Part shown: one piece after another, positions 14,594 through 60,606 of the stretch
Position numbering within the stretch: the stretch's first letter is position 1
Layout of the letters: every line of letters starts with the position of its first letter
Assembly: GCA_964374105.1 (NCBI GenBank)
Contig: CAYJXI010000009.1
Coordinates: 1-60,606, forward strand
Length of the DNA: 60,606 nt
Source of the DNA: an uncultured Planctomycetales bacterium
Lineage (GTDB): Bacteria > Omnitrophota > Gorgyraeia > Zapsychrales > JANLHA01
Reading direction: 5' to 3'
Made by a program: the position numbers and the translations under genes
The notes under the pieces: generated by a model
Told to the model about the DNA's origin: nothing
What the model saw: the letters and a program-made list of their open reading frames with translations, nothing else
Database searches by the model: none

Positions 14594-14606
14594 TACAGTG
14601 AGGAAG

Positions 14607-14646: not shown

Positions 14647-14692
14647 GTGAAGATGTCAATAAAACAGCTCAATAAAGAGGAGTTTTGAAAAT

Positions 14693-18850: not shown

Positions 18851-18887
18851 AAGACAGTAGGGGCACGGCATGCGGTGTCCCTAATAA

Positions 18888-18930
18888 ACACACACCCGGT
18901 GTTTGTCTTATACAAACACCGGGTGTGTGT
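18888..18930. repeat. REPIN-like inverted doublet hairpin
   Basis: ACACACACCCGGTGTTTGT-CTTAT-ACAAACACCGGGTGTGTGT: perfect 19-bp stem. Confidence 0.7.
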
Positions 18931-18950
18931 GGGATGTTATGAGGCAAGCA

Positions 18951-19346: not shown

Positions 19347-19391
19347 TTTGTGCAAACGGCGAGTTATAATGTATTTTACCTATAAAAAACG

Positions 19392-19435
19392 AACACACAC
19401 CCGGTGTTTGTTTTTACAAACACCGGGTGTGTGTT
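19392..19435. repeat. REPIN-like inverted doublet hairpin
   Basis: AACACACACCCGGTGTTTGT-TTTT-ACAAACACCGGGTGTGTGTT: perfect 20-bp stem. Confidence 0.7.
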
Positions 19436-19455
19436 GAGAATAAAAGGATTGGTGA

Positions 19456-20310: not shown

Positions 20311-20372
20311 GCAAAGGGACACGCGTGTCCTTAAAGGGACAGTCATCACCCATATAAGGATGGTCCAAAAAG

Positions 20373-23799: not shown

Positions 23800-23828
23800 T
23801 TGTTCTCATCGAAGATGGGTGTTATACT
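23800..23828 (+). promoter_or_regulatory. sigma70-type promoter with extended -10 upstream of the giant gene
   Basis: TTGTTC at 23800-23805, 17-nt spacer, TGtTATACT with -10 at 23823-23828. A 7-bp inverted repeat CCATCTT/AAGATGG (23795-23801 and 23812-23818) overlaps the -35 and spacer. Confidence 0.4.
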
Positions 23829-23936
23829 TAAAAAGCAAGTGGTAAGATAGTCGGTCAGAAAGGCTTTCAAAAAAGATCGTCAAAATGAAAATTGCCGCGG
23901 AAAACTTAAACAATTTTGGAGTTTAGACTATTCTTA

Positions 23937-23967
23937 GAAGCTACCGTTATTCGCGGTAGTTTTTTTT
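23937..23967 (+). terminator. intrinsic terminator between the promoter and the giant-gene start
   Basis: Stem CTACCG (23941-23946) pairs with CGGTAG (23954-23959), extendable by A-T/G-U pairs, followed by eight T (23960-23967). Confidence 0.5.
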
Positions 23968-24074
23968 ATTTTAAAATTTAGTAGTCAGATTGGACAATCT
24001 TATCTTAAATTCATTTTTTATAGTTTGGACATTATTGATTCGCTAGAAGTTTAGCAAAGTAGGTCTGAATTTTA

Positions 24075-27000
24075 ATGGAAGAAAAAGAAAGATTGGACAT
24101 TAAAGAAGAAAGTAGTAATTTTAATTTAAATTCTATCAATAATAAGGATAGTAATCTAAATACTTTTTACACTTTTGCCCTGCCTGAAGAAAAACCCATC
24201 CCTTTTAAAAGTCACTTTAAATCTTGGATAAGAACAGTTGCCTTATTTGTCGTTTTAGTCTTCGTCCCTGAACAAATCAGCTGGGCGTTTAATTATGATT
24301 CAACTGTGATTTGGGGCTTTAAAAACGATCAATCCGCGACCCCATCGGCACCCACCGAACAGGTTGTTACAGCCAAGGTCACCGAAAGCATAAGAGATCT
24401 TTTAATTCAGTTGGCTTATCGGGAAAAGGCGGAGATAGATCTTATTTTATCCAACCCTCAGTCTGCCAAAAGGGAAAATTTTCAACCTCACATCAATTTT
24501 AGATCAAAACTGGATGTGACCGAGGGGATTATTAAGCAAGTTAACCAGTGGCTTTCTGATCCCAATATTCACCCCTTAAACTGCGGTGTGTATGCTTTAA
24601 GGGATCTTTTAAGACTCAGCGGCATACAGATTCCCTTGGAGGAACTTTCTGTCAGTACCTTAGCCGTTGATTTATTGCACGAGATCGTAAGACCTGGTGA
24701 GGAAAAACTTAAAACCTCCCTTTTTGCCATTGACAAGGTTGTACAGGCCTATGGCCTTCCCTTCCAAGCCGCCAAAATCAAACCTCAAGACATAACAAAG
24801 CTTAAAACCCCTTTCATCGCCAATTATGACTCCGAACACTTTGTTTTAGTAGGGAGGATGGATGAACAGAATATCCATTTTACCGATATCGGCCGTCATA
24901 TGTCGCTTCCGCGCGATGACTTTGTGAAGAATTTCAGCGGGTTCGTTCTTGCTCCTGAGCTAGATAAAGCTGGGATTGAATACGAACTGATCACGGACAG
25001 CCAAAAGGCCTTTGTTTGGGGAAACAAATGGGTCGACAATTCCGATGATTTGCCGGGATTAATAGATGCGGGAGATGTTGCCCTTTCAGTAGGCATTACT
25101 GTTTTGACCATAGTTATTGCCGCTGTGTCCTGCATATTTGCCGCCTGCGCTGGACTTGTTCTTTTACCCCTTTCCATTGGTGCCTCAGCACTCGGAAGCA
25201 CCCTAGGTCAGGTCTGCCAGTTGAAGTGGGGTTGTAATGAAGATCAGGCCATGCTTTTGAGTATAGGTGTTGCGGTTGGGTTAACCTTGGGGGCATCTAT
25301 ACTCTGGTCGTGGGGTTCATCCACAGCTCCTACGGTAGCTCAGGTAGCTACAGATGTAGGTCAACAAGTAGGCAAAGACGCTCCCCAACAGGCAGCCCAA
25401 CAAACTTCCAACGCGCTACAGATACTTTTGACTGCACTCAAAGATGCCGCAATTGCGGTAAAGGATGCCATTGTCGATACGGTCAAGCAGGTTGCCTTGG
25501 CGATTAAGGATGCAGTAGTTCAAATTTACACGGATATTGTTAATTTTGTTACAAATATAATTGAATTCTTTAGGTCAATCGGGACTTTTCTGGCGGATCT
25601 CTTTACTGGCCAGTTATTCACGGCCACAACAACAGCAACGACAACCACTACCTCGTCATTATCGTCATTAGGATCCGCCTCTGTTGTGGTGCTCAAAGAT
25701 GTTCTCAAACTCCTTGGGGGTATGCAGGAGACTAGACCGATCCATTTCTCATTGAGTGAATTATTATTTGCCATTCCTAAAACTATGGCGGTTACGGCGA
25801 CTTATGCGGCGATTAAAGTTTACTTGGGGAAATGGTTAAGAAAACAACTTGGTGATGACGTCATTGCCGAGGTGTTTAATTCGCTCATTACCTCCATTGC
25901 CGCGGATGTGGCGATCCAAGCCGAAGCGTATTTCTTAGACAGGCTAACCTTATCCGAGAACATGGCCTTTTCGGAATTCATGGGTGTAGGTGAGAAAAGA
26001 AGTGTAAGAGAGGCAAAAAAGCAAGGGGATGCTGCACGGGCTCAGGCCAAGGCTCAAAAATTAAGTCTAGACCAACAACAGGCCGCCTACGATGCGGCTT
26101 ATACTCAGACTTTAAGAGAACTTGATCCGGAATTAATTGCCAAAGACGCCGCAGATGCGAAGGTCGTTGCCGAAGCAAAAAAATTAAAAACCGATGACAA
26201 GAAACTCACTACAGACCAAGCTAAAAGTATTTGGACAGCAGAGTATAAAAAAGTTTTAAACAGTACCGCTGATCCCTTTGTTGTTGATTTACGCGCCGGA
26301 CTCGCTAATACGTTAGGTAATGCCTTTACGAGAACGCTTGGGGCCTTTGCCGGGATGACAGCAAGATATATTGCCATGGATCTTTTAGAAGAGGATGCGG
26401 ATCCCAATTCGCTTTTGTCACAGGCCATCGGTGACCTCTTCAGTGCTTTGACCATTGCCACCTATTCCGCCATGACCAACCATTTTTCTTATGAGGCCCC
26501 CGTGGATGTGAAAAAAGAAAAAGAAGGGGAGCATAAAGAGGAATATTATTACGAAAGGGTGACGGTTGATCCAAATACTAAACAAAAAACCACAACAAAA
26601 ATCTATGTGAATCCCGATGACGGGATTATTTACGCCAGATCCCCAGCGGATAAGACCGTTCCTATTACACCCGAGAATGTGCAGTTTGTTTTTCAGGAAC
26701 GAAAGGGTTTCTGGGAAACACTCCTTGTGACCGCAACGCCCAGGATCGCCAATGCGGCCATGGCCTGGGGATTGGATGAATATGAAAACAAAAATGTCAA
26801 AGAAGAATGCGATGATAACGGCGAAAACTGTCAGAAAGACGAGCTGCATCGGGCCGGGATTCGGGGACTATTTCTCCTATCGGCGGCAGCCATAGAAGGT
26901 GTAGCCAATGTGGCTATGTATTACTGGAATCGAGATACCGGCATCGATGGACAAAAAATCACCGTTGAAAATCCCCACGACATGGGTCTCTTTAGTGTTT

Positions 27001-60000: not shown

Positions 60001-60606
60001 AGGATCGGTTGATCGGCGGGCATTACGGCTTGGGCGGGAAATTTACCGGCCATGGCCGAGAGACAGTTTATATGTTCAAAAACGCCGATGAGGCGGAAGA
60101 CTTGTTGACCGAAATTGGGCGAGAGGAAACCGAAAGACCGCAGAGAATAGCGCAAGGCGTGCTGCACGAAACCATCGGTTTGGTCAGCAAGGTCGATGAA
60201 TATCTTGATGAAAGAGGCCATGAAGAGAATGTGGCTATCCAGCGGCAATGGAATGAATTATTAGGGAAGGTAGCACCTCAAGAACGAAGACAGGCCGCCT
60301 TAAAATCTAAAGAGGCGAGTGACACGAAAGATTATGCCATTTTAGCTACGCCCAAAGAACTCGTTCCTCAAGTCGCTCCACAACCCGGTATAGAGACCCC
60401 AATTCAGTTGACGCCTGTTTTACCGACTATGCCAACCCTTACCCCCATTCTTCCCTTAGGTCGCAAAACGGAAACTAAGAAGAAAAAGGATGCGGCCATT
60501 TTAACCCAAGCCAGACCTATTTCCATTACAAAATCACAAGATCGATATGTAGCTTATGATTCCAATGAAATCAGCGAGGCCCAAGTTGAGGACATCATGG
60601 CGGTTG
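24075..60606 (+). CDS. giant protein, 5' partial: at least 12,177 codons with no stop in the window
   Basis: In-frame TAG at 24060-62 and TGA at 24066-68, then ATG 24075. I read no in-frame stop to 60605. The ORF track has no + ORF in this frame after 24 kb but has 13 short ones in the other two + frames. Frame checks at 24582, 28722, 40551, 49383, 54330, 58209 and 60543 all agree. TAA, TAG and TGA all terminate neighbouring genes. Confidence 0.9.
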   Translation, partial: MEEKERLDIKEESSNFNLNSINNKDSNLNTFYTFALPEEKPIPFKSHFKSWIRTVALFVVLVFVPEQISWAFNYDSTVIWGFKNDQSATPSAPTEQVVTAKVTESIRDLLIQLAYREKAEIDLILSNPQSAKRENFQPHINFRSKLDVTEGIIKQVNQWLSDPNIHPLNCGVYALRDLLRLSGIQIPLEELSVSTLAVDLLHEIVRPGEEKLKTSLFAIDKVVQAYGLPFQAAKIKPQDITKLKTPFIANYDSEHFVLVGRMDEQNIHFTDIGRHMSLPRDDFVKNFSGFVLAPELDKAGIEYELITDSQKAFVWGNKWVDNSDDLPGLIDAGDVALSVGITVLTIVIAAVSCIFAACAGLVLLPLSIGASALGSTLGQVCQLKWGCNEDQAMLLSIGVAVGLTLGASILWSWGSSTAPTVAQVATDVGQQVGKDAPQQAAQQTSNALQILLTALKDAAIAVKDAIVDTVKQVALAIKDAVVQIYTDIVNFVTNIIEFFRSIGTFLADLFTGQLFTATTTATTTTTSSLSSLGSASVVVLKDVLKLLGGMQETRPIHFSLSELLFAIPKTMAVTATYAAIKVYLGKWLRKQLGDDVIAEVFNSLITSIAADVAIQAEAYFLDRLTLSENMAFSEFMGVGEKRSVREAKKQGDAARAQAKAQKLSLDQQQAAYDAAYTQTLRELDPELIAKDAADAKVVAEAKKLKTDDKKLTTDQAKSIWTAEYKKVLNSTADPFVVDLRAGLANTLGNAFTRTLGAFAGMTARYIAMDLLEEDADPNSLLSQAIGDLFSALTIATYSAMTNHFSYEAPVDVKKEKEGEHKEEYYYERVTVDPNTKQKTTTKIYVNPDDGIIYARSPADKTVPITPENVQFVFQERKGFWETLLVTATPRIANAAMAWGLDEYENKNVKEECDDNGENCQKDELHRAGIRGLFLLSAAAIEGVANVAMYYWNRDTGIDGQKITVENPHDMGLFSVFVDEGIGPLTHFVESLALDFYSFNGTAPWAGGKVGFENTAQFVAFADQLGASTGYTHEALDQMRAARKQIQKRNQENSLAGNGPTTEEDRKLEEEQAEAEYFLAVDNILKSGRISFILNQINSNLASGYVYQDVYKQGGLFPTLTRSFEVLVSNFINDPTILNTFGFVYRPWRGVETDTKIVDLKGIRAPGDIGSRYSIASKTTAFFPGIFEMAGVADRGRDYFIINDNGTAVENPNQIRWTQKDVKDLGIGNGRILTKDGDSIPLMSPYAADIVDENIAKVETGFKFFDRLPSIYDFHANVGRKGIGFFKVSREGGKEGEYQNEWQVSGNVYQKDQQPAFLVGFLADFLLKGKEKGNLTFAQPALSPDEMYLFAQFAYEDGFLVEEGDGQLIISDPGTLDSLIVMDLATGKSEITIDANSDLGFEIRNSKLGSKINAISQTLFQGKTDLHKQDFLMAFFAEHLQKEKDGTLKSEDGQWAFGSINLSPEEIDIIRTAAQAEGYQIDETENKLIVYEDIDDLKEYFIVNKTTGKMELTIPLESQLGLAIRNEAIGEIAKAVTTAQAGSPTQPAQAFHIALLSDFARKEGSNLKKDSNGNIQFEAIEIDREEMDALVQSAIEEGYIVEERDGQVTISDPNTADIMLAWNKTTGGKVLPLIDKGSVLGQAIEEYATNSKGLYRTQFTKAHTDVIEGWDGHDDFVLKVVSERTIGKDIPLTEKDGKLIPAAPPRYFMSQYIGKDALLKDEALQKAFKELRQEALGNEKIGEFITKMAEAVSFGMDVHPAELAQLLKEVGLLTPEEADNVLAAIATISKLRKEQRRADSMATNLTDQKKDNVEKLMAIAKKVKEGTLNPPEEMEFLGQAFGTTSSTLPSIMNDVTTENVTPKELANQLTAMGSTLPPAMQRIFQAIDEMKNKKEIRRQEQAEQAIAQRSEEVAGFLAGFVGLAKDPANLNMDQLEALLGVMTSRDYDLQLVMATLNQKLGIAQALPTTTLASASISSSGLSIDQGWQIAGMGDLGLPQSKDIPHFEKKVIDTAVTHRETKKDFEEGLKFLSGKDVTTSISAYAFTDKNIDELEKDERGGYILDNKALAFVYQGFGQIIKGEKNLSTNFAFGASAEKPIRLDENKNLIDEGSGVMIRSIGKGDKIDFLSLYLGKFAEGINNLEPVSDKTSAVESVLVKAQAAGQAETKAQKATAFHIAMLSDFAKREGNNLQRDSNGNIQFEEFEIGSNEMDALAQSAIDEGYIVEERDGRVTISDPNTVDIMLALDKTTGKMELTIPLDSQLGNAIRKEAVGEVAKAITTAQAGSPAQPAKAFHIALLSDFAKREGNNLKKDSNENVKFEEFELGNEEMDALAQSAIDEGYIVEEKNGQLIISDRTTMDIMVALNKTTGKIELTIPLDSQLGLAIRNEAIGETAKTEPAVKSEPALAKAEVKEKKIKAEEISQALDAFGIISPHVRAVVAAKLAEEEASVPVVAALAKLEAKEKKPVISSRSQPKPPEVPEGRDYVAKIFYTSEEDSQVPGQKNITAGRMYSFFRNKDIKKETHALVMEGTSGLDKDGNLTFSARVNGEYINFPPPGQNGEKGGEGKKEGSVTQREVLAKGVEFLNSPLGWYAFVQDEEKGTFEIHPGKIWIDDFIARLNQGVFVYGDKWGYHPLTENAEIRNTIVKANEGGRIEFFLRGKRGEIKYKGHVYTIDKMEVEGVKGEKAVLLALQNADLQYIEKTLLDSKVDPGQASTITWEIQEARQKNPGAFTSLNDLKAALEASGSCSAAEAVCSASGAVAGQFEQLVSAIEQKVSVEGYLEGAVRFANPIEEIGHIDDLFATKIQSPQWEKLWGDADFTKQPIMTQTFYNQEGAPIGERTIAYKVDLKDDLTIEGLKNGVVYTGNEEAGSKLILNERGLLEAIFTNPITKEDDVRQIKLAQGINAFSLSLDSPTVSILFAAPSLGQTTETAKTPKQEGSGQPPEYYDNVLSLAWTKPVGTTTSYARTDEKGNLLKGEKPMNVYEGDIAGGSVTKDFYARDSNGNVRYENGKPVIATVEGQGDRRLTFYADPFQFGFGSEKYPARMSQSMKTFFIENEQASINYGPGAAVEKDAEGKFKAEHIEEIKNDGRLLHVNTLITKGSPIFGFDKERDPGFYTPLSEFTTYLGNGILTIVDGNISILNGSETMIVMGSGAEFESAAYERFNLHSGFEPQVLAMAEKEEDPIKLTQTRVGYHMDGKQKYSTIIKSEYDEEITKRDAELVIAATGGLIEEKSDNYTKPNIGEKDKDRADVEVKLSIKSDGDTPQDIAKILADVGGKVTPYWDKNGDIASSFIKVEFGSAVDERNMFTVKMNINQVARIMDLIEKNPETAKDPRKLKAAFESVGIPVAETKANKEELERLGNKLASSKGDSKRGEQAIEESQKGIQARQPNTPPVGESAVITFLKKLGFIYTATDFRQLGSRDQSSKKAEDTQAPETAPPSTTSQNSQLTLAAVLRAAVEYFGQRVQEQEFARGVGERMVLEDPPVQEIFNLGRERSPLQQLEDLASPRRHLGLFDSAQAHGRITLEFLSDEELAKNEAGLRPNTGLGLWDSGPMIERGQDLFGRQNRSGFINSFLVLESQDEGELVPVALTGDQAIIGAREAAKQGGLNGFFVGQRPDGTLALRVIGQPAGILPEKESAEGSDLARAFAVPESTFLQIDLNALLKDEGQLKLAGTSSSPTFSREGNILGVEKIGEPPPPEPTAVQLAMKDAPEPSLVFALGQFNPVTEQMEFTGRVSHAPGGPNSYYGLAADNQSLVTSVPTQLSFQDEKFTLDLVGGLYRTDGEGAENRFVGIKIDEQGRKIAINNQFMIVDTGKNDDLGITYDPSYKGLVELAANRAMFDTRQSLTAEEMANVLKTEAKKGKALPVESFHEFFKRLVQSQAYHIWNELKKNPEAKRRMDTNQWGVIWEEIRSNEMYGRGLYGIDIEKSKELADPLAGPKDKGGYDLQGNQELLDLVNKAAMHIVEREALAQKHYRDGSTIRGGYKNEYGAPKPEFDPSYYPLGRDESVAMGTSLPDEKRSYIDKSLKLENAQELATHFGEEKAKERMLAHPELANLSPAEKEELKKLSAAQIALKFPKIWEGEGVPQMVLVDEQGLPIRASMKDGVVERDHYGNIRQDQDGAVVLVTKTIKESGEVGYTTNDGKAVDLKMVKELMFYHPEVVLNGARTIEVYQDMAFRGKMILPDDDHDGVAYWGPLSMTFASKKDDPGLADAEVLPTRFILVDQKGAPIRKDGRYVDLVKTAKPSEEVIFKDQEGDEINPSFVKELPSRIFSQLLYGRPVGSEEEDQWNYKATIGKQIGINLETGRWYISLVDGQIALPADYQTHNKILNINSDHPVFLASAIGIFRKEPKAGPIPADYLSKQEEEKEKEKTKKEKITEVSQTTRIEDVYSDGSVLARLGKDKAIKEGISSLILESAGWGKYASTLGDSWTTIVAQPGVSQKSRRYLIEEAGGGDGQEYEFKTTNNSFIIMPTLPVLVRFINRLRQGEVPGYDVETETGRTGVAFKEAFEKGTPVSGFKDKRNRSGIVLKATTKNGVEYRLVDPDILLGAGEKWIPSFRYKSGVRRMVYTKASVWEERPVDQSLTKDSQEVWNSDDVIIEVVGKDRTSEFKWIDDDDVRVRVVTATGLPGTMLVDYFESTADDLKGSVDDKTVSLVEERMDENGNIKMVVIGRKIRDVDDIQLVPGVVELYGGKDQNGKDLVKIARGVDLAQVIEGAAGTVEQWKNPENISQFWKFWEADGFGGGDIVVRVPRLNPYKLDGSYVKKRNEKGEETDDIFYDYYRIDFSHVRNKIDGEGAKIVSLENFHEGRGPIASESTYSGFFDSFDGDRNEDNVVVSRFKEGELLMRLIDYETTHGLGHLVTDEIKDPETGRVLVARGVLNKDFGLKDAVLMGEKLDLTSTIIGSVDAVLAPVTVVLAVTGVGNAINVGINAGKTLLVEGGKVALRQAVMAGVRAGASSLFAFARSTYLSNQALAIFAATETFNYMQTGEIDPAMTVRNFLLTGALSGASRLSSFLPKTAGTQVAGKTLNVFGAKIPVPSLGSLAFNKAVSIGLPNAVSVASGNGFLSPETNLALVIVSFAGGIGGNFASAARAVGPGLTRVGYMTLSEALLFGQVSAVTGTTLRAFQRQDSAMDTFSDFGKGFALGAVAGGAMGIGGGIVSESAIYSKMKAYFDKHTTQGLLASLTARGLGGGVGLPILDATLKTFEASPVPNKEKSFPEQMKDSFSTENIITGIFLGLASRGLSAQRLQKASTATKLAYGAGAGAAANVLHGFIREYKDAKQKQKDIDYSGEQIFLDAISGAALGMLTVSYLASPKNFIGKGKTAEHSLKNFYENPEALFMSSAQGAAKWVWVSPAFELGGAIFKGQAVRVSKAVFGEESMYAGEDVPWLAVDKVDPETGEVVKGKLDSLMENELGISDLSRLMEGAIQGPQSGLWMAPLFGVIQAQGLNEGAAKTFSQRVLASLQMPRWLEKVAESRFGKTVLVKLETVKPKSEAAKPAEAGKPAEAGKPAEAGSGSSGEVAKAGTEGKAPTGPGPNDITVGRVLANTYRDVFYMPTVITLIHEGMQFANEVSDKIVGRKAKKNKEGSDQSKEEEESDGSLFTLSQSSYLGWLGFLSLPSYHRGGVGAEDGDVTRIPPRPPTFGKEGEGETGASPMETKANRVESLVDRALGQTENYRNQYNQATAEAEALETRANDLEIKLKSLLAKRNAQDQGQPPAEVAGEETDVLARLERHKPDDNGSSVPRQARGEEELASLPGSNNGNGAGLEKEGVFLDPNLDGGLANRVPTLPIEGTQGSGSGNKLQQEIDGLRQQAAAKRKEADATLQSVEHHATRAKNLAEQELGLRETIALGTGDGMKSATQGLPEAKKESQAGSDSSGSEAELASSKGSSKVGPAREGQVDKAVVSRPKEEGVSSPKAQEKLTAESGETAKTRDISSEPAKPRDGPAVQGTPQRTTPKTAREIELEKIIQEADIFLAQANEALASSPYTRSRKELKPLTQKAQKGVKRVEEMISDIDSQLSSLEGQLTEAQARRDKSQRELDREQKDLELAEKLLSEAERDIEAEPGVSKARERVTKAETKADYAADNLEKAKAQKQKSEAELAALKTEDPKRSPKKARAPNESEVGAKVLEARKKTENVEDTKEKLERDEDKGHDARIELAKERAMAGERLGLDAAKEIVAEQTALRDLAQQIREDDHTKVKGLEAQIDALKAKKPHLEKALGIAQAKVEKRRSIVTKEARLRRAKEAGDRAEATASRIVSELTVREGSELKIKDGLSAEELDLLKISLGRLKERAQTAETIAKDISETQRSLEATEREAADLSAELENLGTPTTAAAQRRIAEISKRLAEISSTRSELKAKREGFLEKAKQVDLETVDLDSLIKLAVAERSEGQREIERTDREIEDSRQEETRAQQLVDQAQADLDQATTALAAKQRIASQSDLRGKPAPQELAKRKGQGFDTGYESPRAKRKARDASGKTEEQELASKVLKSGKAERNAEKSEAKKKRTQEKFDIEAAQEEAAARRADLETAKLLLAKARVRTAQKEKSLRLAEAKGEKLDEEILSFGTERDSKSTQKAGYQGQAAEARKVPTKEHLTRLAQEAEQRADELLVKEFRDGKTKATQEAYEEVAAAASRLSDRYAKSEVELSGQRRSLAQDIEASEHTLNRLSSELFRLERDKKQSEQKVAELRELLASAKQSGKELESSPLAKKLRQARGAQQKASDRYQETQEDPTKNKAVHQKLRTQQRAEEKSRRLQEKFDREKDETQDLEQLIREEIQTESRKIEELAKVITRLEKRVDSDSRLAVELKVQREGLDQVESDLKLASKEAYQKVSELARQKATEVSDGKTPIETTPTLTRPPESPLELLAKKYRAESGESAPEQVKPGSKKEAAGERVARSTKAIQDSARQEIEQLLPQVESRVKDTREILARKSSQVSKEQYERLEGDLGQRIVKEAERTISELVELNEFGGIKSIKVEDGDLQGALRVIKAYKILEEKASDKGMIKANIQRAENRAKELKEKITSAEAQKADRGKGLEQAKEQRINAQEQLRAEQEEYARLNDIDNDPGVKKAKAKFEKQDVASERAESNYERLRTNYQTAQKKYEEALAQQEKAPSADHADKAYRAKRNMEEAFGKMEKAEAAAKKLEVPYQQANLDYQKAKDIARAKAAEQKQYVQLAKQELAQTEKTITRRQRHVEKLGKIKEGYAERLLGEQEQIALNESTPTKQKYQWLSRQAKEKAVEIAEGVVKALAEVEVVDGVTTIKNIRPTNREGFKRLARAADFLTRHAKSEELIQQEIQFRKRVVSAKEKDQADFKEESNQGQPANSSSYRRLAQAALDLARGKTTPEREALKEARTRREDLLAQENEGVGEIDRQLSDHKVELNEARTRKEGLKGEVEKAQREIAVAESLNQDAQRQLELALRNVVLDEGLRRAMGNAANQRAASQKAGENYEFAKKNDREAKKKYEEAIKERDEAIQNDSPNSHQKSLEADNAKRNMEEASGNLKRVEASAERVAESYQAGELELAKARDTAERKFKIADLRQEKKTAESMLEKATKNYEAKASEFNEVNSEIISLEKSIGDLAFRRGLKKIEIANVEKDISTLRKIPTKEEYSSKAKDAARTADERLIQEAWQGRERSSAQEYDEVAKVADKLYREAPTQETLDQQWQSARQDYEVERHSLRKVRGEIEKTQSQLEEAIRKREQLESDVEYAKGEVKGVESTKQGKGLARAEVNLRNQQKALAKALSKGTPGETQGQAVSSKERAVRRATEKVKSKKPALEKETTEREEFLELARVELKEARAKEKELRQNLSRMQATEKQIESDLSRANERVKAIESTLSRAELALISKEAKQKAREMEQGRVSSPQEKKEGEPILQKVFRTELELQEGFEVAKPSQAEPGTRRHEAQVRSAKVKGAMQKGAKEALRQLVPEVERGVQESKDSLAKKEKEISKEGYTGIKRTTLKEMSRSARRELSEESGSQSRIESDISQRGEVVLGERAKRAEARRKEMNILGKELGQVSRQVAEVDTRLATLRSQLKSGVAEGRTLDSSEKIHMRDTLIPRLEKQRSRLAEKFDTAKKSLDRLNVQLRAQEVADQILAKALATLPKPRVDKTPIKPQAPPKEFTFSDVLDRVIAKKDDRVLDDFLGRSLGSERQDILEELWSRARLETATEGSIISEALKKLGLDYKLNGLEPFYKQAISEDSAAGRLAAKRELYLRSQSATSRTERLAAHWALSDIDHILAERARSQSDELAASTRDKAVKTQTPPRSRQKSSRPSTGTSSPDGTKPSIVRKVIDKYKAIKQEREEVKRAKRVATLAKELFDNDGKETPAFRDETSVEIKSAAFEMYRTLQDTKTDIENFARAQGEKPFDLKTEDVDWLEVYEMARNAYGQFKKGEKPFIVISKETGGGKTVLIQALALMLARDPFMRDRSVVIVVPESVKTEILTDSTKSMLKGRIRDVKNKNESLSIERGLNIATHAEAQRLRHENKIDKSMIELSDETDRQNRIPVLVVSSGRDSEQIMDRARAGDRKAKEIVRNSEVDRSQTELLALISEKLVEQEGDIHKVVAFDGSRRKNPWDFRKDKDDSGSSARGRVERLYREIVDSWEGKELGKETAQLLGEWQKDASFNERFNTAFEGFRNAGGEVLEFSGKTMEKKLGALARYLYNRATPDYKFDPEGDMLFYMLADSGHSQKGTIPGDSEYARMLVIAVTWDKLGVGKRGETLKNYLTARRTKTMNPVSDVDVHSAFGLVIGFSGTAESMELAGRAQGARFLKPKTERNNVDFMELRLDDRPVDVRDPVKSIAEGIKEHLFREDLRDPSRGEDGREYNNARLTIATTDHREAFDRLVVEAEANGGRLKLDGKEKRVAIVTEYKDSGEIDAKQLEEAKDAVKRLQEDKDEELIVLFLGLSGGSNIAALADRLVETAGSVAKARESVSKANVLVFSARATADMGQAGGRVNIAGDRESQRMNAHKVEGIIFINADGKVETPQRSRALDAVASGDKNQIRLVALEILDSIQNRNLISKVYTVAKTSPELTKETVRDVVHDFMKKSTDRRVMDIMDRSGRFELSVALDSGKGYETYKAKKYDENGKVKEVEAVSITATTGPIFFGGGVRLQPGQTYNYQDGFIYATVESEKGKLPLSAVAANLQDKKPAMQPVAVFRTYYDEKKQGFVNGIFDIQLDTEGKKYFARPNEKVEFVQEDGKKVSVAVDNVQYLDQEKKNENYLKVTQGSKELGIRAGDQILSLNNRIVVTRQQGPQRLIKKILAKDSSGSFKLSNLKVSNLEVSGPKTENPDGTVGITEETFRALKHQEKIVSQMLAATSELPQLHNSGKIKASVEEMLSQAQSLLGYREGWQVTRKGDWQIEGGRIVEHPYLEIAHQDDIQGERTQLGKLQKVAEKKYGTKFIFDPFMEHHGTAGEADKEKRELLLGTHAFVTLATPIKTMQGSGVAWHEVSHMTDNYREAQGTPNIGGAARIRVVNRGKRLPFYKEDDIGGYHDDFAIGEIKTHEITGAARLIDMRDAVRLGDEKGADSFAYGALDYLERGAKIAFNTQFATEFALRSVARQDRTSGEWVLDRDKSHNIEIQGNKAVIKVLDDDVEEFIEIDQPLPQNLSNDSDKKEWIVKQLDLTAKMAKTRGSAMKLKAALAKSHRDDSLISDAIKNSRRELKDILGEAVKEDGRFTAIEPSRSEAELVLSEVLSTARPVEEKNQVTYISPITGRGIVVDSDSRKIVKFISQEPALTKFLDFVVDEKDKSEAIERVQATDRSPEGRAFKSAYQKAQLLEEPEILDRVQLFALSDNDLQREVTFFVDQYKSKVTDVGSQALQQELSADRRFVSHSRKLKSHPEIYIAKADKVASRISDFLESVGGHDLVVADTSEKMSWVVLFEALTLKNPTMSDDRKIAQLRDWYQELESSEGIDIDEDIDIEEPSYASVDRAMLSLGRSKRIEMPKTSALPRIRSQKSQSSQTDERSRLYDIAEGINRGSREDLASESSFSTPQVKAMSKIVERLTKTIPGFKPELGQTALGYATLESAERAAEGKGDILLWVSPQGRGKTTIGVPSAMEAAKRENIPIVYSASDEANAAKIVIEAERLLGPGAVDRVQYERGRPVLQELKKGRVVVMTIREQQEFQSRGKLSNVFGLLDEAHRTTSAAPLVEGPARGIGRDMLSSERGRIEVKRLKFKEQLEHNIALMDTVREVAGEIGGKDPWIIVKNQEDQSGNPIGEAFESRDVAVDIYGNVLKDNNGNAIRPKQIILERFAQRPESKAYEFTETEMNALLNSGVRMLMSEMNAPRVAYKEGRDGKIEDYAPIDIDTGEAKWGQIFGDPTGGLNPDGRMAIASQGKKASLDLYIDNVLSKTTKETTGIDVIKGMSGSILATGTSDLAMDMIAKRKVQTNPQIKLGEMAAKLILDDGNSPNSRAIAAVDRTLAHINSREGRDTNLVIIDSSIPTDREYHRKQLEGLKGYTFVEKTGEELANFVKDFNEGKVKGKVILSTQVYDGISFEGPGKIHMILANATSENNRNQAFTRGGSTPELAKRRTPMTAEQIMNMNDPQFDHKTRTRLALRKLELKQAEKEAGVNPQTGEIVSFDPAKIERVKTARVNLQAELEGVAHQLASRAQTPSLRQVSRLSQKAEGERYSEQEIMQRIEEYETAQLTSRAKWAMESTGQKRVDISFENNKGYETFVLDATQKSGVRPISISATASLPLNYGLVLQSGQTLDLDQHLIYEDDKDGNRSQEPTAIVQYTPVVENNVPRMETKVLPLTNGRYFTKDIQQGFKSDLALEKVTYEIGTKKQDKPKLTHYLVRATPQIRQEFGFTEAQDQEGLVKVPKEHFERAIALNENKNLRNQKFSEILGKIQGSVIADLMSAERYQKASQRETEIRKAVELALSEVSEVDKLTLSEMGSSEKEFLKRALDSKDDKAEVVMFDVNKDELRQEIAKTLDSLVETKQISKKERVQFEHQMKDRLIGGHYGLGGKFTGHGRETVYMFKNADEAEDLLTEIGREETERPQRIAQGVLHETIGLVSKVDEYLDERGHEENVAIQRQWNELLGKVAPQERRQAALKSKEASDTKDYAILATPKELVPQVAPQPGIETPIQLTPVLPTMPTLTPILPLGRKTETKKKKETELAVSSKPVRRDTAILTQVRPGMFDRFRSRLTQMGGITAVGLLGFFSPTPKLEAQSQESVEFYQASDEQHKSDFGFPQAKQELSLNLDQMLDSLRADRGGIVPAEINAPNLMKIAGSLPKSRPTFEDFTKAVSRELKTRYDRYNKGQMSAAEVEELAKMEGEVLRWTYKFWDHNVAYDTEGVRTGAWKIGDLHHAVVGNPNLPGRPRTGVCDSCSDLTTMTLNELGFGHKKDSVSKVGVKVNFAGRDQDAGGGHTAVLWKGVKANGIIDLTQGVKGDLNTDVKHKVLWVNTQNGKRFIDLSREDLADVTGETFGNLLEFKKTWVAANKLIENHNATIALVNSGRTPLDLIMPSLEDIAYKTGVLKGSPATAHRPELRKNLEQLSIGVAQSMATARYNDGVKTHERLVNKLNEANQLANDGKFNEAIKLYDSVKKDAQDHAARLEKSPLVNIKKADMDGRRIISEIHKAAEVAEQNRQAAEHNKTIGARGVKTAAVSGSVQGAIEAMNRFNERLNLANREFKKGNYEEARRQYDSIKKEISKTVESFNASALAKLTESESNLQDEQGRAVSGKQLIGNIDQLRKVAESNLKATEQNIHTGQYNNLVKQFNDYANARNLNEVLRNIGNVSREADRFAKEPAVETKMRDAFKELKKQADKVIQQKTESGALMPSAKAEVQLAMAPIKELAPAKDSVGLTAISLAQTPSSLVLARAKGMTSLPEERYAEFDKINDTLLMKQISLESLKMKLSNIPAAERTEQERIQKQIASVETEIRILEELNQKISETLDTLVETKQISKKERVQFEHQMKDRLIGGHYGLGGKFTGHGRETVYMFKNADEAEDLLTEIGREETERPQRIAQGVLHETIGLVSKVDEYLDERGHEENVAIQRQWNELLGKVAPQERRQAALKSKEASDTKDYAILATPKELVPQVAPQPGIETPIQLTPVLPTMPTLTPILPLGRKTETKKKKDAAILTQARPISITKSQDRYVAYDSNEISEAQVEDIMAV
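24555..24965 (+). other. C39-like papain-fold cysteine peptidase domain of the giant protein
   Basis: NCGVYALRDLLRLSGIQIPLEEL (Cys codon 24582-84)...AYGLPFQAAKIKPQDITKLKTPFIANYDSEHFVLVG (His codon 24837-39)...IHFTDIG...RDDFVKNFSGFVLAP. Order and spacing match the C39 bacteriocin-processing peptidase pattern. Confidence 0.6.
25070..25320 (+). other. membrane-spanning cluster 1 of the giant protein
   Basis: GDVALSVGITVLTIVIAAVSCIFAACAGLVLLPLSIGASALG and AMLLSIGVAVGLTLGASILWSW. There is also an earlier TM helix, WIRTVALFVVLVFVP, at ~24225-24290. Confidence 0.6.
28026..29030 (+). repeat. three tandem copies of a ~112-120-aa module in the giant protein
   Basis: Units start at ~28026, 28362 and 28722. 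Shared pattern F..A.LSDFA.KEG.NL......F......EEMD....A..EGY.VEE.DG...ISDP...D.......TTGK.ELTIPL.SQLG.AIRNEAIGE.AKA.TTAQAGSP. Confidence 0.7.
30594..31260 (+). repeat. two further tandem copies of the same module
   Basis: Units start at 30594 and 30951 (357 nt apart). High nucleotide and protein identity to the unit at 28722 (FHIA(L/M)LSDFAKREGNNL...EMDALAQSAIDEGYIVEE). Confidence 0.75.
38795..40200 (+). other. membrane-spanning cluster 2 of the giant protein (Gly/Ala-rich polytopic region)
   Basis: Roughly 8-10 hydrophobic Gly/Ala-rich segments, e.g. VLAPVTVVLAVTGVGNAINVG, ALVIVSFAGGIGGNFA, FALGAVAGGAMGIGGGIV, IITGIFLGLASRGL, ISGAALGMLTVSYLA. Confidence 0.55.
40593..40649 (+). repeat. (KPAEAG)x3 microrepeat linker
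   Basis: AKPAEAGKPAEAGKPAEAG, encoded with different synonymous codons in each unit. Confidence 0.8.
41075..48480 (+). other. very long coiled-coil/charged helical region of the giant protein
   Basis: Almost continuous E/K/R/A/Q/L-rich heptad-like sequence, interrupted by an S/G/P-rich stretch at ~41230-42000. Contains diverged ~364-370-aa super-repeats. Confidence 0.65.
49340..51080 (+). other. SecA-DEAD-like P-loop ATPase module 1
   Basis: KETGGGKT (GGGKT at 49383-49397), then SVVIVVPESV, LSDETDRQNRIPVLVVSSG, VIGFSGTAESMEL (50430-50441) and MGQAGGRVNIAGD. The order parallels SecA motifs TGEGKT / VVTVNDYLA / DEVDSILIDEARTPLIISG / GMTGTA / RGRAGRQGDPG. Confidence 0.6.
52530..52544 (+). other. 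HExxH motif (HEVSH)
   Basis: GVAWHEVSHMTDNY. Motif-level evidence only. Confidence 0.25.
54290..55800 (+). other. SecA-DEAD-like / DEAH P-loop ATPase module 2
   Basis: SPQGRGKTT (54330-54353), IPIVYSASDEANA, LLDEAHRTTSAAPLVEG (DEAH at 54615-54626), ILATGTSDLAMDM and QAFTRGG. Confidence 0.6.
57021..57574 (+). repeat. copy 1 of a 554-bp near-identical in-frame direct repeat
   Basis: Identical by eye to 59937-60490 except G57025 versus C59941. The offset is 2916 nt (972 codons). Confidence 0.85.
58190..58400 (+). other. transglutaminase-like (papain-fold) Cys-His-Asp core
   Basis: GRPRTGVCDSCSDLTTMTLNELGF (Cys 58209-11)...AGGGHTAVLWKG (His 58338-40)...NGIIDLTQG (Asp 58383-85). Spacing fits transglutaminase-core cysteine peptidases. 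Confidence 0.4.
59937..60490 (+). repeat. copy 2 of the 554-bp direct repeat
   Basis: See copy 1. After the repeat the protein stays homologous (DTAILTQVRP versus DAAILTQARP) following an ~11-aa indel. Confidence 0.85.

What the first reader, a model, noticed from the sequence alone, without database searches (positions are those of the whole stretch)
24075..60606. One uninterrupted ORF of at least 12,177 codons, invisible in the ORF track
The frame of ATG 24075 is closed just upstream (TAG 24060, TGA 24066). After that I found no stop through the last base of the window, a span of 36.5 kb. The supplied track lists only stop-bounded ORFs, so this gene is missing from it. Its footprint is still visible: there are no + ORFs in this frame after 24 kb, only short ones in the other + frames, plus dozens of antisense shadow ORFs. 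TAA, TAG and TGA all terminate neighbouring genes, so stop-codon reassignment does not explain it. The translation reads as real protein throughout, with domains, TM helices, coiled coil and catalytic motifs. The 3' end lies outside the window, so the true size is larger.
Basis: seen in the sequence. Interest (0 to 1): 0.95.

Follow-up and report, generated by a model that had tools for sequence, protein, structure and literature searches.

The report
Truncated giant Omnitrophota membrane-protein gene
The stop-free 36.5-kb reading frame is real and is the 5' part of one of the giant genes (over 10,000 codons) already known to be common in the tiny, probably predatory Omnitrophota bacteria, so it is a new, very divergent example of a known oddity and not a new kind of thing.

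Summary
Observation confirmed. The frame of ATG 24075 has no stop for 12,177 codons, up to the window end. The other five frames have 416-977 stops. The codon model built from the upstream genes favours this frame in all 24 sub-windows. TAA, TAG and TGA all terminate neighbouring genes.

Identity: this is an Omnitrophota giant gene.
- Its N-terminus (one membrane helix plus a C39 cysteine peptidase, Cys170/His255 invariant) has homologues in 60 species-representative genomes, mostly labelled Omnitrophota.
- In 58 of 62 related loci the homologous ORF also runs open to the end of the fetched DNA.
- The upstream gene order (PPIase, RcpC, secretin, TadZ/A, Flp pilins, two Cys-rich proteins, TadB, TadC) matches the published conserved neighbourhood.

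The rest of the protein is almost orphan. It contains five ~119-aa repeats, a ~2,200-aa charged helical stretch and two weak DEAD-like ATPase modules.

Function is inferred, not shown: a membrane-anchored envelope or host-contact protein working with the Tad-like apparatus.

Caveat: an exact 549-nt direct repeat brackets a compositionally odd 2.3-kb segment at the 3' end.

Side finding: a conserved promoter and terminator-containing leader lie upstream of these genes.

Verdict: new member of a known kind, of moderate-to-low interest.

The parts
24075..60605 (+). Giant ORF of at least 12,177 codons, open at the 3' window end
   Evidence: No in-frame stop; frame 0 is favoured by the codon model in all 24 sub-windows.
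24204..25064 (+). Conserved N-terminal module (aa 44-330): membrane helix aa 54-72, then a Peptidase_C39 domain (aa 170-294) with invariant Cys170, His255 and Asp271
   Evidence: Pfam PF03412, 37-38.5 bits against a cut-off of 22. 33-50% identity to proteins of Omnitrophota metagenome-assembled genomes (MAGs); invariant columns in alignment A2. 60 genome loci.
25110..25304 (+). Two strongly hydrophobic segments (aa 346-364 and 392-410), with Cys pairs 353/358 and 381/387
   Evidence: Kyte-Doolittle 19-residue means of 2.79 and 2.12; Cys positions.
28011..29042 (+). Three tandem copies of a ~115-120 aa repeat unit (aa 1313-1656)
   Evidence: Self-BLASTP and alignment A3. dN/dS between copies 0.17-0.36. 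AlphaFold2 model pLDDT 67, with no significant PDB fold match.
30537..31259 (+). Two further copies of the same repeat unit (aa 2155-2395)
31611..35645 (+). Region (aa ~2513-3857) collinear with the giant ORFs of the closest relatives L015, L063 and L018 at 25-37% identity
   Evidence: tblastn of the whole ORF against the related loci.
38787..40514 (+). Gly/Ala-rich hydrophobic cluster (aa ~4905-5480), a candidate second membrane-spanning region
   Evidence: Hydropathy peaks at aa 4909, 5081 and 5304; composition. No Pfam hit.
41922..48524 (+). ~2,200-aa highly charged helical-type region (KRDE ~40%, A/E/K/L/Q/R ~65%, Gly+Pro ~6%) with internal divergent repeats
   Evidence: Composition; modest 3.5-residue periodicity; self-hits 6752-6982 vs 7779-8003 and 7081-7186 vs 7445-7556.
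49272..51674 (+). ATPase module M1 (aa 8400-9200): P-loop TGGGKT, a DETD box, then a beta-rich domain
   Evidence: Alignment A1; Pfam ResIII 0.0015 and DEAD 0.02, both below threshold.
52530..52544 (+). The only HExxH motif (HEVSH, aa 9486-9490), a possible metalloprotease site
   Evidence: Motif count 1 against 0.15 expected by composition. No family match. A lead only.
54222..56504 (+). ATPase module M2 (aa 10050-10810), a paralogue of M1: P-loop QGRGKT, a DEAH box, then a beta-rich domain
   Evidence: Pfam DEAD 5.6e-5, 23.4 bits against a cut-off of 26. Collinear 23% identity over ~800 aa to P0011.
56999..57574 (+). Direct repeat, copy 1 (576 nt; the last 549 nt are identical to copy 2)
   Evidence: blastn self-comparison and mismatch list.
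57575..59914 (+). In-frame segment between the repeat copies with anomalous GC3 (0.58-0.65). It starts with an SD-like GGTGAG, ATG 57645 and a signal-peptide-like sequence. It also contains a CxxC...H...D region and weak TPR-like repeats.
   Evidence: GC3 profile against 0.34-0.49 in upstream genes. Sequence read. TPR_2 8.7e-5, below threshold. No relatives in the metagenome scan.
59915..60490 (+). Direct repeat, copy 2, ending 116 nt before the window end
23800..23828 (+). Conserved promoter-like element of the giant gene: -35 TTGTTC, 17-nt spacer, extended -10 TGtTATACT
   Evidence: TGnTATACT occurs 47 times forward and 3 times reverse in 989 kb of related loci. 40 of the 47 forward copies lie within 500 nt upstream of the giant ORF.
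23936..23975 (+). Terminator-like hairpin (GCTACCG...CGGTAGT) plus T-run inside the ~240-nt leader
   Evidence: The same hairpin is conserved, with compensatory changes, in L015, L018, L063, L024 and L038.
185..21254 (+). Upstream Tad-like secretion/pilus locus: Rotamase_2 PPIase, RcpC, secretin with a TonB_C tail, TadZ-like/TadA-like fusion, at least 7 Flp-type pilin-like ORFs, Cys-rich 537-aa and 1385-aa proteins, TadB, TadC
   Evidence: Pfam; ORF translations; synteny u537-u1385-p147-TadB-TadC-giant in about 50 related loci.
21861..23308 (-). Insertion sequence (DUF772/DDE transposase, 437 aa) with 17-nt terminal inverted repeats, lying between TadC and the giant-gene promoter. A Y1_Tnp remnant sits next to it at 21528-21797 (+).
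   Evidence: Pfam Y1_Tnp (weak) on the identical Logan contig.

Best explanation
The span 24075-60605 is the 5' portion (at least 12,177 codons) of a genuine single protein-coding gene of an uncultured Omnitrophota bacterium. It belongs to the class of giant genes that sit directly downstream of a conserved Tad-like (type IVc pilus / T2SS-like) locus and begin with a membrane helix plus a C39 cysteine peptidase.

Shown here:
- The frame is coding throughout.
- The N-terminal module and the upstream gene order are conserved across roughly 60 species-representative genomes, mostly labelled Omnitrophota.
- In those relatives the homologous ORF is likewise thousands of codons long.
- The gene has its own conserved sigma-70-type promoter with an extended -10.

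Inferred mechanism:
- The protein is inserted in the cytoplasmic membrane through the N-terminal helix and later hydrophobic clusters.
- The catalytically intact C39 domain processes the protein itself or partner proteins.
- The repeat domains and the ~2,200-aa charged helical region form an extended envelope or surface structure.
- The two divergent DEAD-like P-loop modules provide NTP-driven work, such as export or remodelling.
- Together with the co-encoded Tad-like pilus/secretin, the protein mediates attachment to, or attack on, host or prey cells. This role was proposed for the 39,678-aa protein of Velamenicoccus archaeovorus and for other Omnitrophota giants.
For: Coding signal:
- There are 0 stops in 12,177 codons, against 416-977 in the other frames. 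The codon model prefers frame 0 in 24 of 24 windows. All three stop codons are used by neighbouring genes.
- Internal repeat copies show dN/dS of 0.17-0.36.

Homology and synteny:
- Peptidase_C39 scores above the curated cut-off. Cys170, His255 and Asp271 are invariant in 11 sequences.
- The named N-terminal homologues are annotated as Candidatus Omnitrophota.
- 60 related loci were found in GTDB species representatives. Most are titled Omnitrophota (Omnitrophota/Omnitrophica, Ca. Zapsychrus, Ca. Aceula); about a third carry other labels (uncultured Planctomycetales, bacterium, one Deltaproteobacteria).
- In 58 of 62 related loci the homologous ORF runs to the end of the fetched DNA, up to 3,887 codons.
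- The order u537-u1385-p147-TadB-TadC-giant, on the same strand, recurs in about 50 loci.
- The window's order Rotamase_2 PPIase, RcpC, secretin, T2SSE, T2SSF x2 is the neighbourhood described in 10.1101/2023.11.21.568195 section 11 and in 10.64898/2026.06.07.730766.
- The promoter motif is found almost only upstream of the giant ORFs.

Independent assemblies and literature:
- An independent assembly (Logan, ERR3478686) reproduces 11096-28613 at 99.98%.
- Giant ORFs over 20 kb occur in 77 of 116 Velamenicoccia genomes and in other classes. Peptides of the V. archaeovorus giant protein were detected and increased in attached cells (PMC10066038).
Against: - No expression data exist for this gene.
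- The 3' end and the downstream genes are missing.
- Only one domain passes a curated threshold. The SecA_DEAD domain reported for most Omnitrophota giants was not detected: there was no PF07517 hit, and hhalign against E. coli SecA gave a probability of 0.4%.
- The HEAT, glycosyltransferase and dockerin hallmarks of the two published subtypes are absent from the first 12,177 aa.
- Topology rests on hydropathy alone, so which parts lie inside or outside the cell is unknown.
- The last 3.6 kb contains an exact 549-nt repeat and a compositionally deviant insert. Its arrangement and copy number need read-level confirmation.
- In a few relatives (L002, L019, L037) the homologous gene is split by frame changes, and in L003 the module is a stand-alone 1,206-codon ORF. 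A single polypeptide is therefore not obligatory for the family.
Confidence: 0.85

Rival explanations
1. The ORF is real for most of its length, but its 3' end (from about 57.0 kb) is an assembly construct. The assembler traversed an exact 549-nt repeat twice. It thereby either stitched in a segment from another locus, strain or element, or mis-counted a 2,916-nt tandem unit.
For: 57026-57574 is identical to 59942-60490, and the second copy ends 116 nt before the window end. The enclosed 2.3 kb has GC3 of 0.58-0.65, against an ORF mean of 0.43 (sd 0.06) and 0.34-0.49 in upstream genes. The segment begins with an SD-like GGTGAG, an ATG and a signal-peptide-like sequence, as an independent gene would. 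The short-read Logan contig breaks exactly at another internal repeat, at 28613, which shows that repeats do fragment this gene in assemblies.
Against: The repeat spacing is 2,916 nt, exactly 972 codons, and the insert has no stop in frame 0 over ~780 codons. The codon model still prefers frame 0 there. The copy boundaries have diverged: there are 6 mismatches in the first 27 nt, and related but different sequence follows each copy. This is as expected for a genuine segmental duplication. Any number of passes through the loop keeps the frame open, so the main observation is unaffected.
Confidence: 0.15
2. The reading frame is one gene at the DNA level but does not yield one 12,000+ aa working protein. 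It is a polyprotein cut by its own C39 peptidase, and/or it is also translated from internal starts, into several smaller membrane, structural and enzymatic products.
For: An apparently active C39 peptidase sits at the N-terminus. West-Roberts et al. raise self-cleavage as a possibility. There is an internal SD-like sequence, ATG and signal-peptide-like sequence at 57632-57740. In relatives the homologous region is sometimes several consecutive ORFs, or a stand-alone 1,206-codon ORF.
Against: No cleavage sites or products are known. The splits in L002, L019 and L037 have long frame overlaps typical of frameshift errors or pseudogenisation. 58 of 62 loci keep a single frame. This rival concerns maturation, not the reality of the gene, and is compatible with the main explanation.
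Confidence: 0.3
3. The long open frame is not a translated gene: it is a chance or compositional artefact, a decayed pseudogene, or a product of stop-codon reassignment.
For: None found. There is no direct expression evidence for this locus, and 97% of the sequence has no database homologue.
Against: The chance probability is about 1e-325. The other frames have normal stop densities, the codon usage matches neighbouring genes, and all three stop codons are used nearby. There is purifying selection between repeat copies, a conserved N-terminus, promoter and synteny, and no in-frame stop that would need reassignment.
Confidence: 0.01

Closest known systems
Omnitrophota giant genes (West-Roberts et al. 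2023, bioRxiv 10.1101/2023.11.21.568195; Seymour et al. 2023, PMC10066038; Nielsen & Lui 2026, bioRxiv 10.64898/2026.06.07.730766)
   Same: The phylum matches. The ORF is over 20 kb. The N-terminal C39 peptidase lies next to a membrane or signal segment, and there are several hydrophobic clusters. The preceding locus has a Rotamase_2 PPIase, RcpC, GspD-like secretin, GspE-like ATPase, class-III-signal pilins and two GspF-like proteins. Transposases sit nearby, as noted by Nielsen & Lui. The sequence is unique outside the N-terminus: they report that 80% of proteins of at least 10 kAA are singletons at 30% identity. It fits their 'PF03412-only' architecture cluster.
   Different: No SecA_DEAD, HEAT, glycosyltransferase, dockerin or TSP3 domains are detectable in the part seen. 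The two ATPase modules are only generically DEAD/ResIII-like. The full length and the downstream PilZ and solute-binding genes cannot be checked. The conserved promoter and leader terminator found here is not mentioned in the two giant-gene preprints I searched for these terms.
The 39,678-aa giant protein of Velamenicoccus archaeovorus LiM (Kizina et al. 2022, as summarised in PMC10066038 and 10.1101/2023.11.21.568195)
   Same: It is a giant, multi-TM protein of an Omnitrophota cell that also encodes and expresses a Tad complex. It is the only member of the class with peptide evidence, and it has a proposed role in host attachment and surface degradation.
   Different: I made no direct sequence comparison with it; it was not among the hits. 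The 'Archaeovorin' domain set (HEAT, GT5/GT1, TPR, NUDIX, methyltransferases) is not seen here, apart from weak TPR-like repeats.
Peptidase C39 domains of bacteriocin/RTX ABC exporters (PF03412; for example NHLM_micro_ABC1, TIGR03796)
   Same: The papain-like C39 fold is detected above threshold, with the conserved Cys and His.
   Different: It is not fused to an ABC transporter. It sits after a single membrane helix at the start of a giant protein. The substrate is unknown.
Tad / Flp (type IVc) pilus systems of predatory and adherent bacteria
   Same: RcpC, an RcpA-like secretin, TadZ-like and TadA-like ATPase domains, TadB, TadC and many Flp-type pilins with the G/xxxEY motif lie immediately upstream.
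   Different: The secretin carries a TonB_C domain. TadZ and TadA are fused. Two large Cys-rich proteins (537 and 1385 aa) with no Pfam match are conserved parts of the locus. The locus is tightly linked to a giant gene.

Membership tests
Omnitrophota giant genes (West-Roberts 2023 / Seymour 2023) | Very long single ORF (over 20 kb in Seymour et al.; over 30,000 aa / over 90 kb for the 46 'giant' genes of West-Roberts et al.) | tested here: met
   At least 36,531 nt / 12,177 codons without a stop. This meets the over-20-kb criterion. The over-30,000-aa criterion cannot be judged because the 3' end is outside the window.
Omnitrophota giant genes | Encoded by a member of phylum Omnitrophota | tested here: met
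   The named N-terminal homologues are annotated as Candidatus Omnitrophota. Most of the 60 genome loci are titled Omnitrophota; about a third carry other labels (uncultured Planctomycetales, bacterium, one Deltaproteobacteria). TadB/TadC are 56-78% identical to those of these genomes. No rRNA or marker gene is in the window, so placement is by homology and synteny only.
Omnitrophota giant genes | Preceded by a conserved secretion/pilus locus (Rotamase_2 PPIase, rcpC, gspD, gspE, gspF, class III signal peptide genes) | tested here: met
   Pfam hits on the upstream ORFs; pilin-like ORFs; the same order in about 50 related loci; description.
Omnitrophota giant genes | N-terminal C39 (or S8) peptidase near a signal or TM segment | tested here: met
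   PF03412 at aa 170-294, 37-38.5 bits against a cut-off of 22. Hydrophobic helix at aa 54-72. Both are conserved in alignment A2.
Omnitrophota giant genes | Numerous transmembrane regions | tested here: inconclusive
   Eight 19-residue windows reach a Kyte-Doolittle mean of 1.6 or more, in clusters at aa 54-72, 346-410, 596-614, 4909-5322 and 8932. No dedicated topology predictor was available.
Omnitrophota giant genes | Divergent SecA DEAD helicase / SecA preprotein-binding domains (present in 'most') | tested here: not met
   No PF07517 hit at E up to 5 on short segments or on long ones. hhalign of the M1/M2/P0011 profile against validated E. coli SecA 1-668 gave probability 0.4%. The PDB profile search found only a weak SF2 P-loop match. 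Only generic DEAD (5.6e-5) and ResIII (0.0015) signals were seen, both below cut-off. More domains may lie beyond the window.
Omnitrophota giant genes | Followed by pilZ homologues and solute-binding/transport genes | not testable with these tools
   The 3' end of the gene is outside the window, and scans for the window end in the metagenome collection found nothing.
Archaeovorin subtype | HEAT repeats, GT5/GT1 glycosyltransferases, methyltransferases, NUDIX and similar domains | tested here: not met
   None detected in 12,177 aa. Only sub-threshold TPR was seen.
Dockerin-type subtype | Multiple dockerin and TSP3 repeats | tested here: not met
   None detected.
Peptidase family C39 | Match to the family model, with the conserved Cys and His retained | tested here: met
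   The score is above the gathering threshold. Cys170 (in IHPLNCGVYA), His255 (EHFV) and Asp271 are invariant in 11 sequences. That these are the catalytic residues follows from the family's known Cys/His mechanism and was not tested.
Peptidase family C39 | Cleavage of double-glycine leader substrates; fusion to an ABC exporter | not tested
   No ABC domain is present in the ORF (Pfam). Substrate specificity cannot be computed.
SF2 helicase-like P-loop NTPases | Walker A (motif I, xTGxGKT) and DExx (motif II) at the right spacing, plus a family model match | tested here: inconclusive
   GKT and DE columns are invariant in M1, M2 and P0011. Pfam DEAD scores 23.4 bits against a cut-off of 26, and ResIII 18.9 against 22.5. 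The AlphaFold2 model was too poor to use, pLDDT 42.5.

The most novel reading that the evidence does not exclude
Two features found here may point to undescribed biology of giant genes.

(1) Transcription control. The gene is driven by a phylum-conserved extended -10 promoter (TTGnnn-17-TGnTATACT), followed by a leader that contains a conserved intrinsic-terminator hairpin. The window's Flp-pilin cluster has the same layout at 9295-9490. Transcription of genes over 36 kb could therefore be gated by a dedicated attenuation or processive-antitermination switch that co-regulates the pilus and the giant protein.

(2) Growth and diversification. The 3' end carries an in-frame 2.3-kb segment of foreign codon composition that begins like an independent secreted-protein gene. 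It is bracketed by exact 549-nt direct repeats. This is the footprint expected if giant genes grow and diversify by in-frame capture or exchange of gene cassettes through homologous recombination.
Probability: 0.2. Interest if true: 0.65.

Novelty: new member of a known kind. Interest (0 to 1): 0.33.

Why it matters
Giant genes of Omnitrophota are among the longest known in any organism, and their function, export and even translation as single chains remain unproven. This locus adds a highly divergent member:
- An exhaustive search of 1.84 billion representative proteins with a 971-aa C-terminal segment gave only two weak hits.
- It belongs to the 'C39-only' architecture.
- It has a clean, complete upstream Tad-like locus.

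The comparative work done here also yields two handles that could make the class more tractable. One is a sharply position-specific promoter motif that can be used to find gene starts in fragmented assemblies. The other is a conserved terminator-containing leader that suggests regulated transcription. In itself, however, the long ORF is not surprising to anyone who knows this phylum.

Tried and rejected
- Word-index searches with aa 9990-11189 and with profile A1 found nothing.
- An exhaustive phmmer search of aa 10030-11000 gave only P0011 (3.6e-9) and P0012 (1e-6), neither of which is informative in Pfam.
- PDB sequence searches of aa 8301-12177 gave no hit. The profile search gave only weak P-loop matches.
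- SecA-likeness looked convincing by eye (GKT, DEAH-RT...P, GFSGTAES versus SecA GMTGTA). It was not supported by hhalign against a validated SecA sequence or by Pfam, so I do not claim it.
- The AlphaFold2 model of module M2 had pLDDT 42.5 and was unusable.
- The AlphaFold2 model of the 119-aa repeat had pLDDT 67. Its best Foldseek PDB hit had E 0.022 and TM 0.3, so no fold was assigned.
- A transglutaminase-like Cys-His-Asp reading of aa ~11370-11470 and a metalloprotease reading of HEVSH 9486 had no family support. They remain leads only.
- NCBIfam added nothing.
- No tRNA or Rfam family was found in the window or the leaders.
- A search for the window's last 49 nt, and for relatives of the high-GC3 segment, in JGI metagenome contigs found nothing.
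- The first genome scan, with the single N-terminal sequence, found nothing. The profile scan succeeded.
- Small ORFs called upstream of the giant gene in L002 and L003 are not conserved.
- Stop-codon reassignment and a chance ORF were rejected.
Full report
**1. The observation**

Translating the window from ATG 24075 to base 60605 gives 12,177 codons and no stop. The frame is closed just upstream by TAG 24060 and TGA 24066, and ATG 24075 is the first start codon after them.

- Over the same 36.5 kb, the two other + frames contain 660 and 977 stops and the three - frames contain 416-644.
- With the region's base composition, a stop is expected every ~17 codons, so the probability of a chance open run is about 1e-325.
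- A codon model trained on the 17 upstream + strand genes scores frame 0 best in each of 24 consecutive 1.5-kb windows.
- TAA, TAG and TGA all end neighbouring genes, and since there is no in-frame stop, no reassignment needs to be invoked.

**2. Independent support for the sequence**

Exact-protein look-ups found two other public assemblies that carry this DNA.

- A Logan contig from run ERR4904390 covers window 14380-19316 with 2 mismatches.
- A 17.5-kb Logan contig from run ERR3478686 covers window 11096-28613 with 3 mismatches and no gaps. It includes the IS element and the first 4.5 kb of the giant ORF.
- That contig stops at 28613, exactly where the first internal repeat family begins (28579/28584). 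This illustrates why such genes are usually fragmented in short-read assemblies.

**3. What it is**

*Upstream locus.* The + strand carries, in order:
- a Rotamase_2 PPIase (185-1168);
- RcpC (1200-2000);
- a secretin with a TonB_C tail (2038-4143);
- a ParA/TadZ-like plus T2SSE/TadA-like fusion (4256-6424);
- at least seven small Flp-type pilin-like ORFs with the class-III signal motif (9701-12532 and 18903);
- two Cys-rich proteins of 537 and 1385 aa with no Pfam match;
- two T2SSF (TadB/TadC) proteins (19456-21254).

This is the neighbourhood West-Roberts et al. describe as conserved in front of Omnitrophota giant genes (10.1101/2023.11.21.568195, section 11). Nielsen & Lui report the same (10.64898/2026.06.07.730766).

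*N-terminus.* The giant ORF begins with a hydrophobic helix (aa 54-72) and a Peptidase_C39 domain (aa 170-294, 37-38.5 bits against a cut-off of 22). A homology search with aa 1-1200 returned ten proteins. All carry PF03412, and the named ones are annotated as Candidatus Omnitrophota. They are 33-50% identical over the first ~400 residues. In the alignment, Cys170 (IHPLNCGVYA), His255 (EHFV) and Asp271 are invariant.

*Related loci.* A profile scan of GTDB species-representative genomes found 60 loci. Most are titled Omnitrophota (Omnitrophota/Omnitrophica, Ca. Zapsychrus, Ca. Aceula); about a third carry other labels such as uncultured Planctomycetales.
- In 58 of 62 related loci, the ORF carrying the homologous module is still open at the end of the fetched DNA, up to 3,887 codons. 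That figure is limited by the 10-kb flank or by the contig end.
- In about 50 loci the order u537, u1385, p147, TadB, TadC, giant gene is kept on one strand.
- The four exceptions are three genes interrupted by frame changes with long overlapping open frames (L002, L019, L037) and one stand-alone 1,206-codon ORF (L003).

The window therefore holds a typical Tad-linked, C39-headed Omnitrophota giant gene. The published surveys report the following:
- Giant ORFs over 20 kb occur in 77 of 116 Velamenicoccia genomes and in other classes (PMC10066038).
- There are 46 genes over 90 kb, up to 85,804 aa.
- There are 5,761 proteins of at least 10 kAA, 80% of them sequence singletons. A 24-member 'PF03412' architecture cluster is one of the two largest.

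**4. Anatomy of the 12,177 residues**

Beyond residue ~450, homology fades. Four loci match aa ~750-1160. Three loci (L015, L063, L018) are collinear over aa ~2070-3860 at 25-37% identity. Features along the protein are:

- **Hydrophobic pair.** Two strongly hydrophobic segments at aa 346-410.
- **Repeats.** Five copies of a ~119-aa unit lie at aa 1313-1656 and 2155-2395. dN/dS between copies is 0.17-0.36, which is direct evidence of selection on the protein. The AlphaFold2 model of the unit is of moderate confidence (pLDDT 67) and matches no PDB fold significantly.
- **Second hydrophobic cluster.** A Gly/Ala-rich hydrophobic cluster at aa ~4905-5480.
- **Charged helical region.** At aa ~5950-8150, ~40% of residues are K/R/D/E and only ~6% are Gly or Pro. 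It has internal divergent repeats but only modest heptad periodicity. 'Coiled coil' is plausible, and a single-alpha-helix type is equally possible.
- **ATPase modules.** Two paralogous ~800-aa modules, M1 (aa 8400-9200) and M2 (aa 10050-10810), each have a P-loop (TGGGKT / QGRGKT), a DExx box (DETD / DEAH) and a C-terminal beta-rich domain. M2 is collinear with one other large protein, P0011. Pfam sees them only below threshold: DEAD 5.6e-5 and ResIII 0.0015.
- **HExxH.** There is a single HExxH motif at aa 9486.
- **3' repeat structure.** Described in section 5.

An exhaustive HMMER search of aa 10030-11000 against 1.84 billion representative proteins gave two hits below 1e-3. Word-index searches gave none. 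PDB, NCBIfam and Pfam add nothing else. Cysteine is almost absent: 11 of 12,177 residues, mostly in close pairs.

**5. The 3' end needs read-level checking**

- Positions 56999-57574 and 59915-60490 are 99% identical. All six mismatches lie in the first 27 nt, so 549 nt are exactly repeated, 2,916 nt (972 codons) apart. The second copy ends 116 nt before the window end.
- The 2.3 kb in between has GC3 of 0.58-0.65. The ORF mean is 0.43 (sd 0.06), and upstream genes range from 0.34 to 0.49.
- That segment starts with GGTGAG, a 7-nt spacer, ATG 57645 and a sequence that looks like a signal peptide (MFDRFRSRLTQMGGITAVGLLGFFSPTPKLEAQ). The signal-peptide reading is by eye.
- It stays in frame and stop-free, and frame 0 is still preferred there.

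This may be a genuine in-frame duplication or cassette capture, a collapsed tandem array, or an assembler path through a repeat. Whichever it is, the frame stays open, so the main finding does not depend on it.

**6. How it most likely works**

*Shown:* a coding, selected, conserved gene with an apparently intact C39 active site, tightly linked to a Tad-like pilus/secretin locus.

*Inferred from the literature on the class:* a membrane-anchored protein whose bulk forms an extended envelope or surface structure used in contact with host or prey cells. The literature basis is that peptides of the V. archaeovorus giant protein were enriched in attached cells and its Tad complex was expressed. The C39 domain may process the protein itself or partner proteins. 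The DEAD-like modules may supply energy for export or remodelling.

*Not settled:*
- topology, that is, which parts face the cytoplasm;
- whether the chain is cleaved;
- any enzymatic activity.

The published claim that most giants carry SecA-like DEAD domains could not be reproduced for this protein.

**7. Side finding: conserved promoter and leader**

- 247 nt upstream of the ATG lies TTGTTC, a 17-nt spacer and TGtTATACT (23800-23828).
- The 9-mer TGnTATACT occurs 47 times on the gene strand and 3 times on the other strand in 989 kb of the related loci. Of the 47 forward copies, 40 fall within 500 nt upstream of the giant ORF. 41 of 59 loci have [TG]nTATACT there, typically with a CTTG(C/T)(C/T) -35 element.
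- About 110 nt downstream of the -10 there is a GC-rich hairpin plus T-run (23936-23975).
- The hairpin is conserved, with compensatory changes, in L015, L018, L063, L024 and L038. By a strict criterion, 12 of 44 loci have such a hairpin in the last 250 nt before the ATG, against 7 of 44 in a control interval.
- A second full copy of the promoter (perfect TTGACA, 17-nt spacer, TGtTATACT at 9295-9324) is also followed by a hairpin and T-run (~9454-9490). It precedes the Flp-pilin cluster.
- No Rfam family matches either leader.
- The two giant-gene preprints I searched for these terms do not mention a promoter or terminator.

This suggests separate, possibly attenuated and co-regulated, transcription of the pilins and the giant gene. 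It is a lead, not a demonstrated mechanism.

**8. Other context**

Between TadC and the promoter, the window carries a remnant of a Y1 (IS200/RAYT-type) transposase (21528-21797). It also carries a 1.45-kb IS with a DUF772/DDE transposase and 17-nt inverted repeats (21861-23308). In relatives this spacer is only a few hundred nt. The insertion leaves the promoter intact. Transposase-rich flanks of giant genes were noted by Nielsen & Lui.

**9. Verdict**

However, the phenomenon is well documented, so this is a new and very divergent member of a known kind. I score interest at 0.33. A specialist would not be surprised by the ORF itself. The residual value lies in the orphan sequence, the promoter and leader, and the repeat-bracketed cassette.

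Noticed in passing
window 23800-23828; related loci L002-L063, within 500 nt upstream of their giant ORFs: A conserved extended -10 promoter motif (CTTGyy, 17-18 nt, TGnTATACT) occurs almost only just upstream of the giant genes. 40 of the 47 forward-strand TGnTATACT copies in 989 kb lie there, against 3 copies on the reverse strand. It is not mentioned in the two giant-gene preprints I searched for the term.
   Followed up: partly
window 23829-24074 (hairpin 23936-23964, T-run to 23975); L015, L018, L063, L024, L038: The ~240-nt leader of the giant gene contains an intrinsic-terminator-like hairpin (GCTACC...GGTAG plus Ts) that is conserved with compensatory changes in relatives. There is also a GCAAGTGGTAA box right after the -10, and a 13-codon mini-ORF at 23886-23927. 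This could be an attenuator, an antitermination target or a small RNA. No Rfam match was found.
   Followed up: partly
window 9295-9324 and ~9454-9490: A second copy of the same promoter type (perfect TTGACA, 17 nt, TGtTATACT) is also followed by a hairpin and T-run, ahead of the Flp-pilin gene cluster. This suggests shared regulation of the pilins and the giant gene.
   Followed up: partly
window 56999-57574, 57575-59914, 59915-60490: An exact 549-nt direct repeat (576 nt at 99%) brackets an in-frame 2.3-kb segment with GC3 of 0.58-0.65, against 0.43 for the rest of the ORF. The segment begins with an SD-like GGTGAG, ATG 57645 and a signal-peptide-like sequence. It may be a captured gene cassette, a collapsed tandem array or an assembly path.
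   Followed up: partly
window 21861-23308 (-) and 21528-21797 (+): An IS element (DUF772/DDE transposase, 17-nt inverted repeats) and an adjacent truncated Y1 (IS200/RAYT-type) transposase remnant are inserted between TadC and the giant-gene promoter. The same insertion is present in the independent Logan contig L064.
   Followed up: partly
window 12622-14235 and 14693-18850: Two large Cys-rich proteins (537 and 1385 aa) have no Pfam match but are conserved in position in about 35-41 related Omnitrophota loci. They are probably uncharacterised components of the Tad-like apparatus (minor pilins or TadG-like?).
   Followed up: partly
window 2038-4143 and 4256-6424: There are two unusual fusions in the Tad-like locus: a secretin with a C-terminal TonB_C domain, and a single 722-aa protein that combines a ParA/TadZ-like domain with a TadA-like T2SSE ATPase.
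   Followed up: no
L027, L043, L049 (about 20-40 nt around their ORF starts): In three relatives an ATG lies only 7-9 nt after the TATACT -10 box, which suggests leaderless translation of the giant gene in those lineages.
   Followed up: no
L064 (Logan ERR3478686) = window 11096-28613; L001 (Logan ERR4904390) = window 14380-19316: The same organism, at over 99.95% identity, is present in two other public sequencing runs. The 17.5-kb short-read contig ends exactly at the start of the internal 119-aa repeat family.
   Followed up: yes
giant ORF, aa 170, 353/358, 381/387, 912/919, 2748/2755, 11379/11382: There are only 11 cysteines in 12,177 residues. Apart from the conserved C39 Cys170, they occur as five close pairs (CxxC to Cx6C spacing).
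   Followed up: no
L002, L019, L037, L003: In three relatives the homologous giant gene is broken into consecutive ORFs in different frames with 200-370-nt overlaps, through frameshift errors or decay. In L003 the C39 module is a stand-alone 1,206-codon ORF convergent with the Tad genes.
   Followed up: partly
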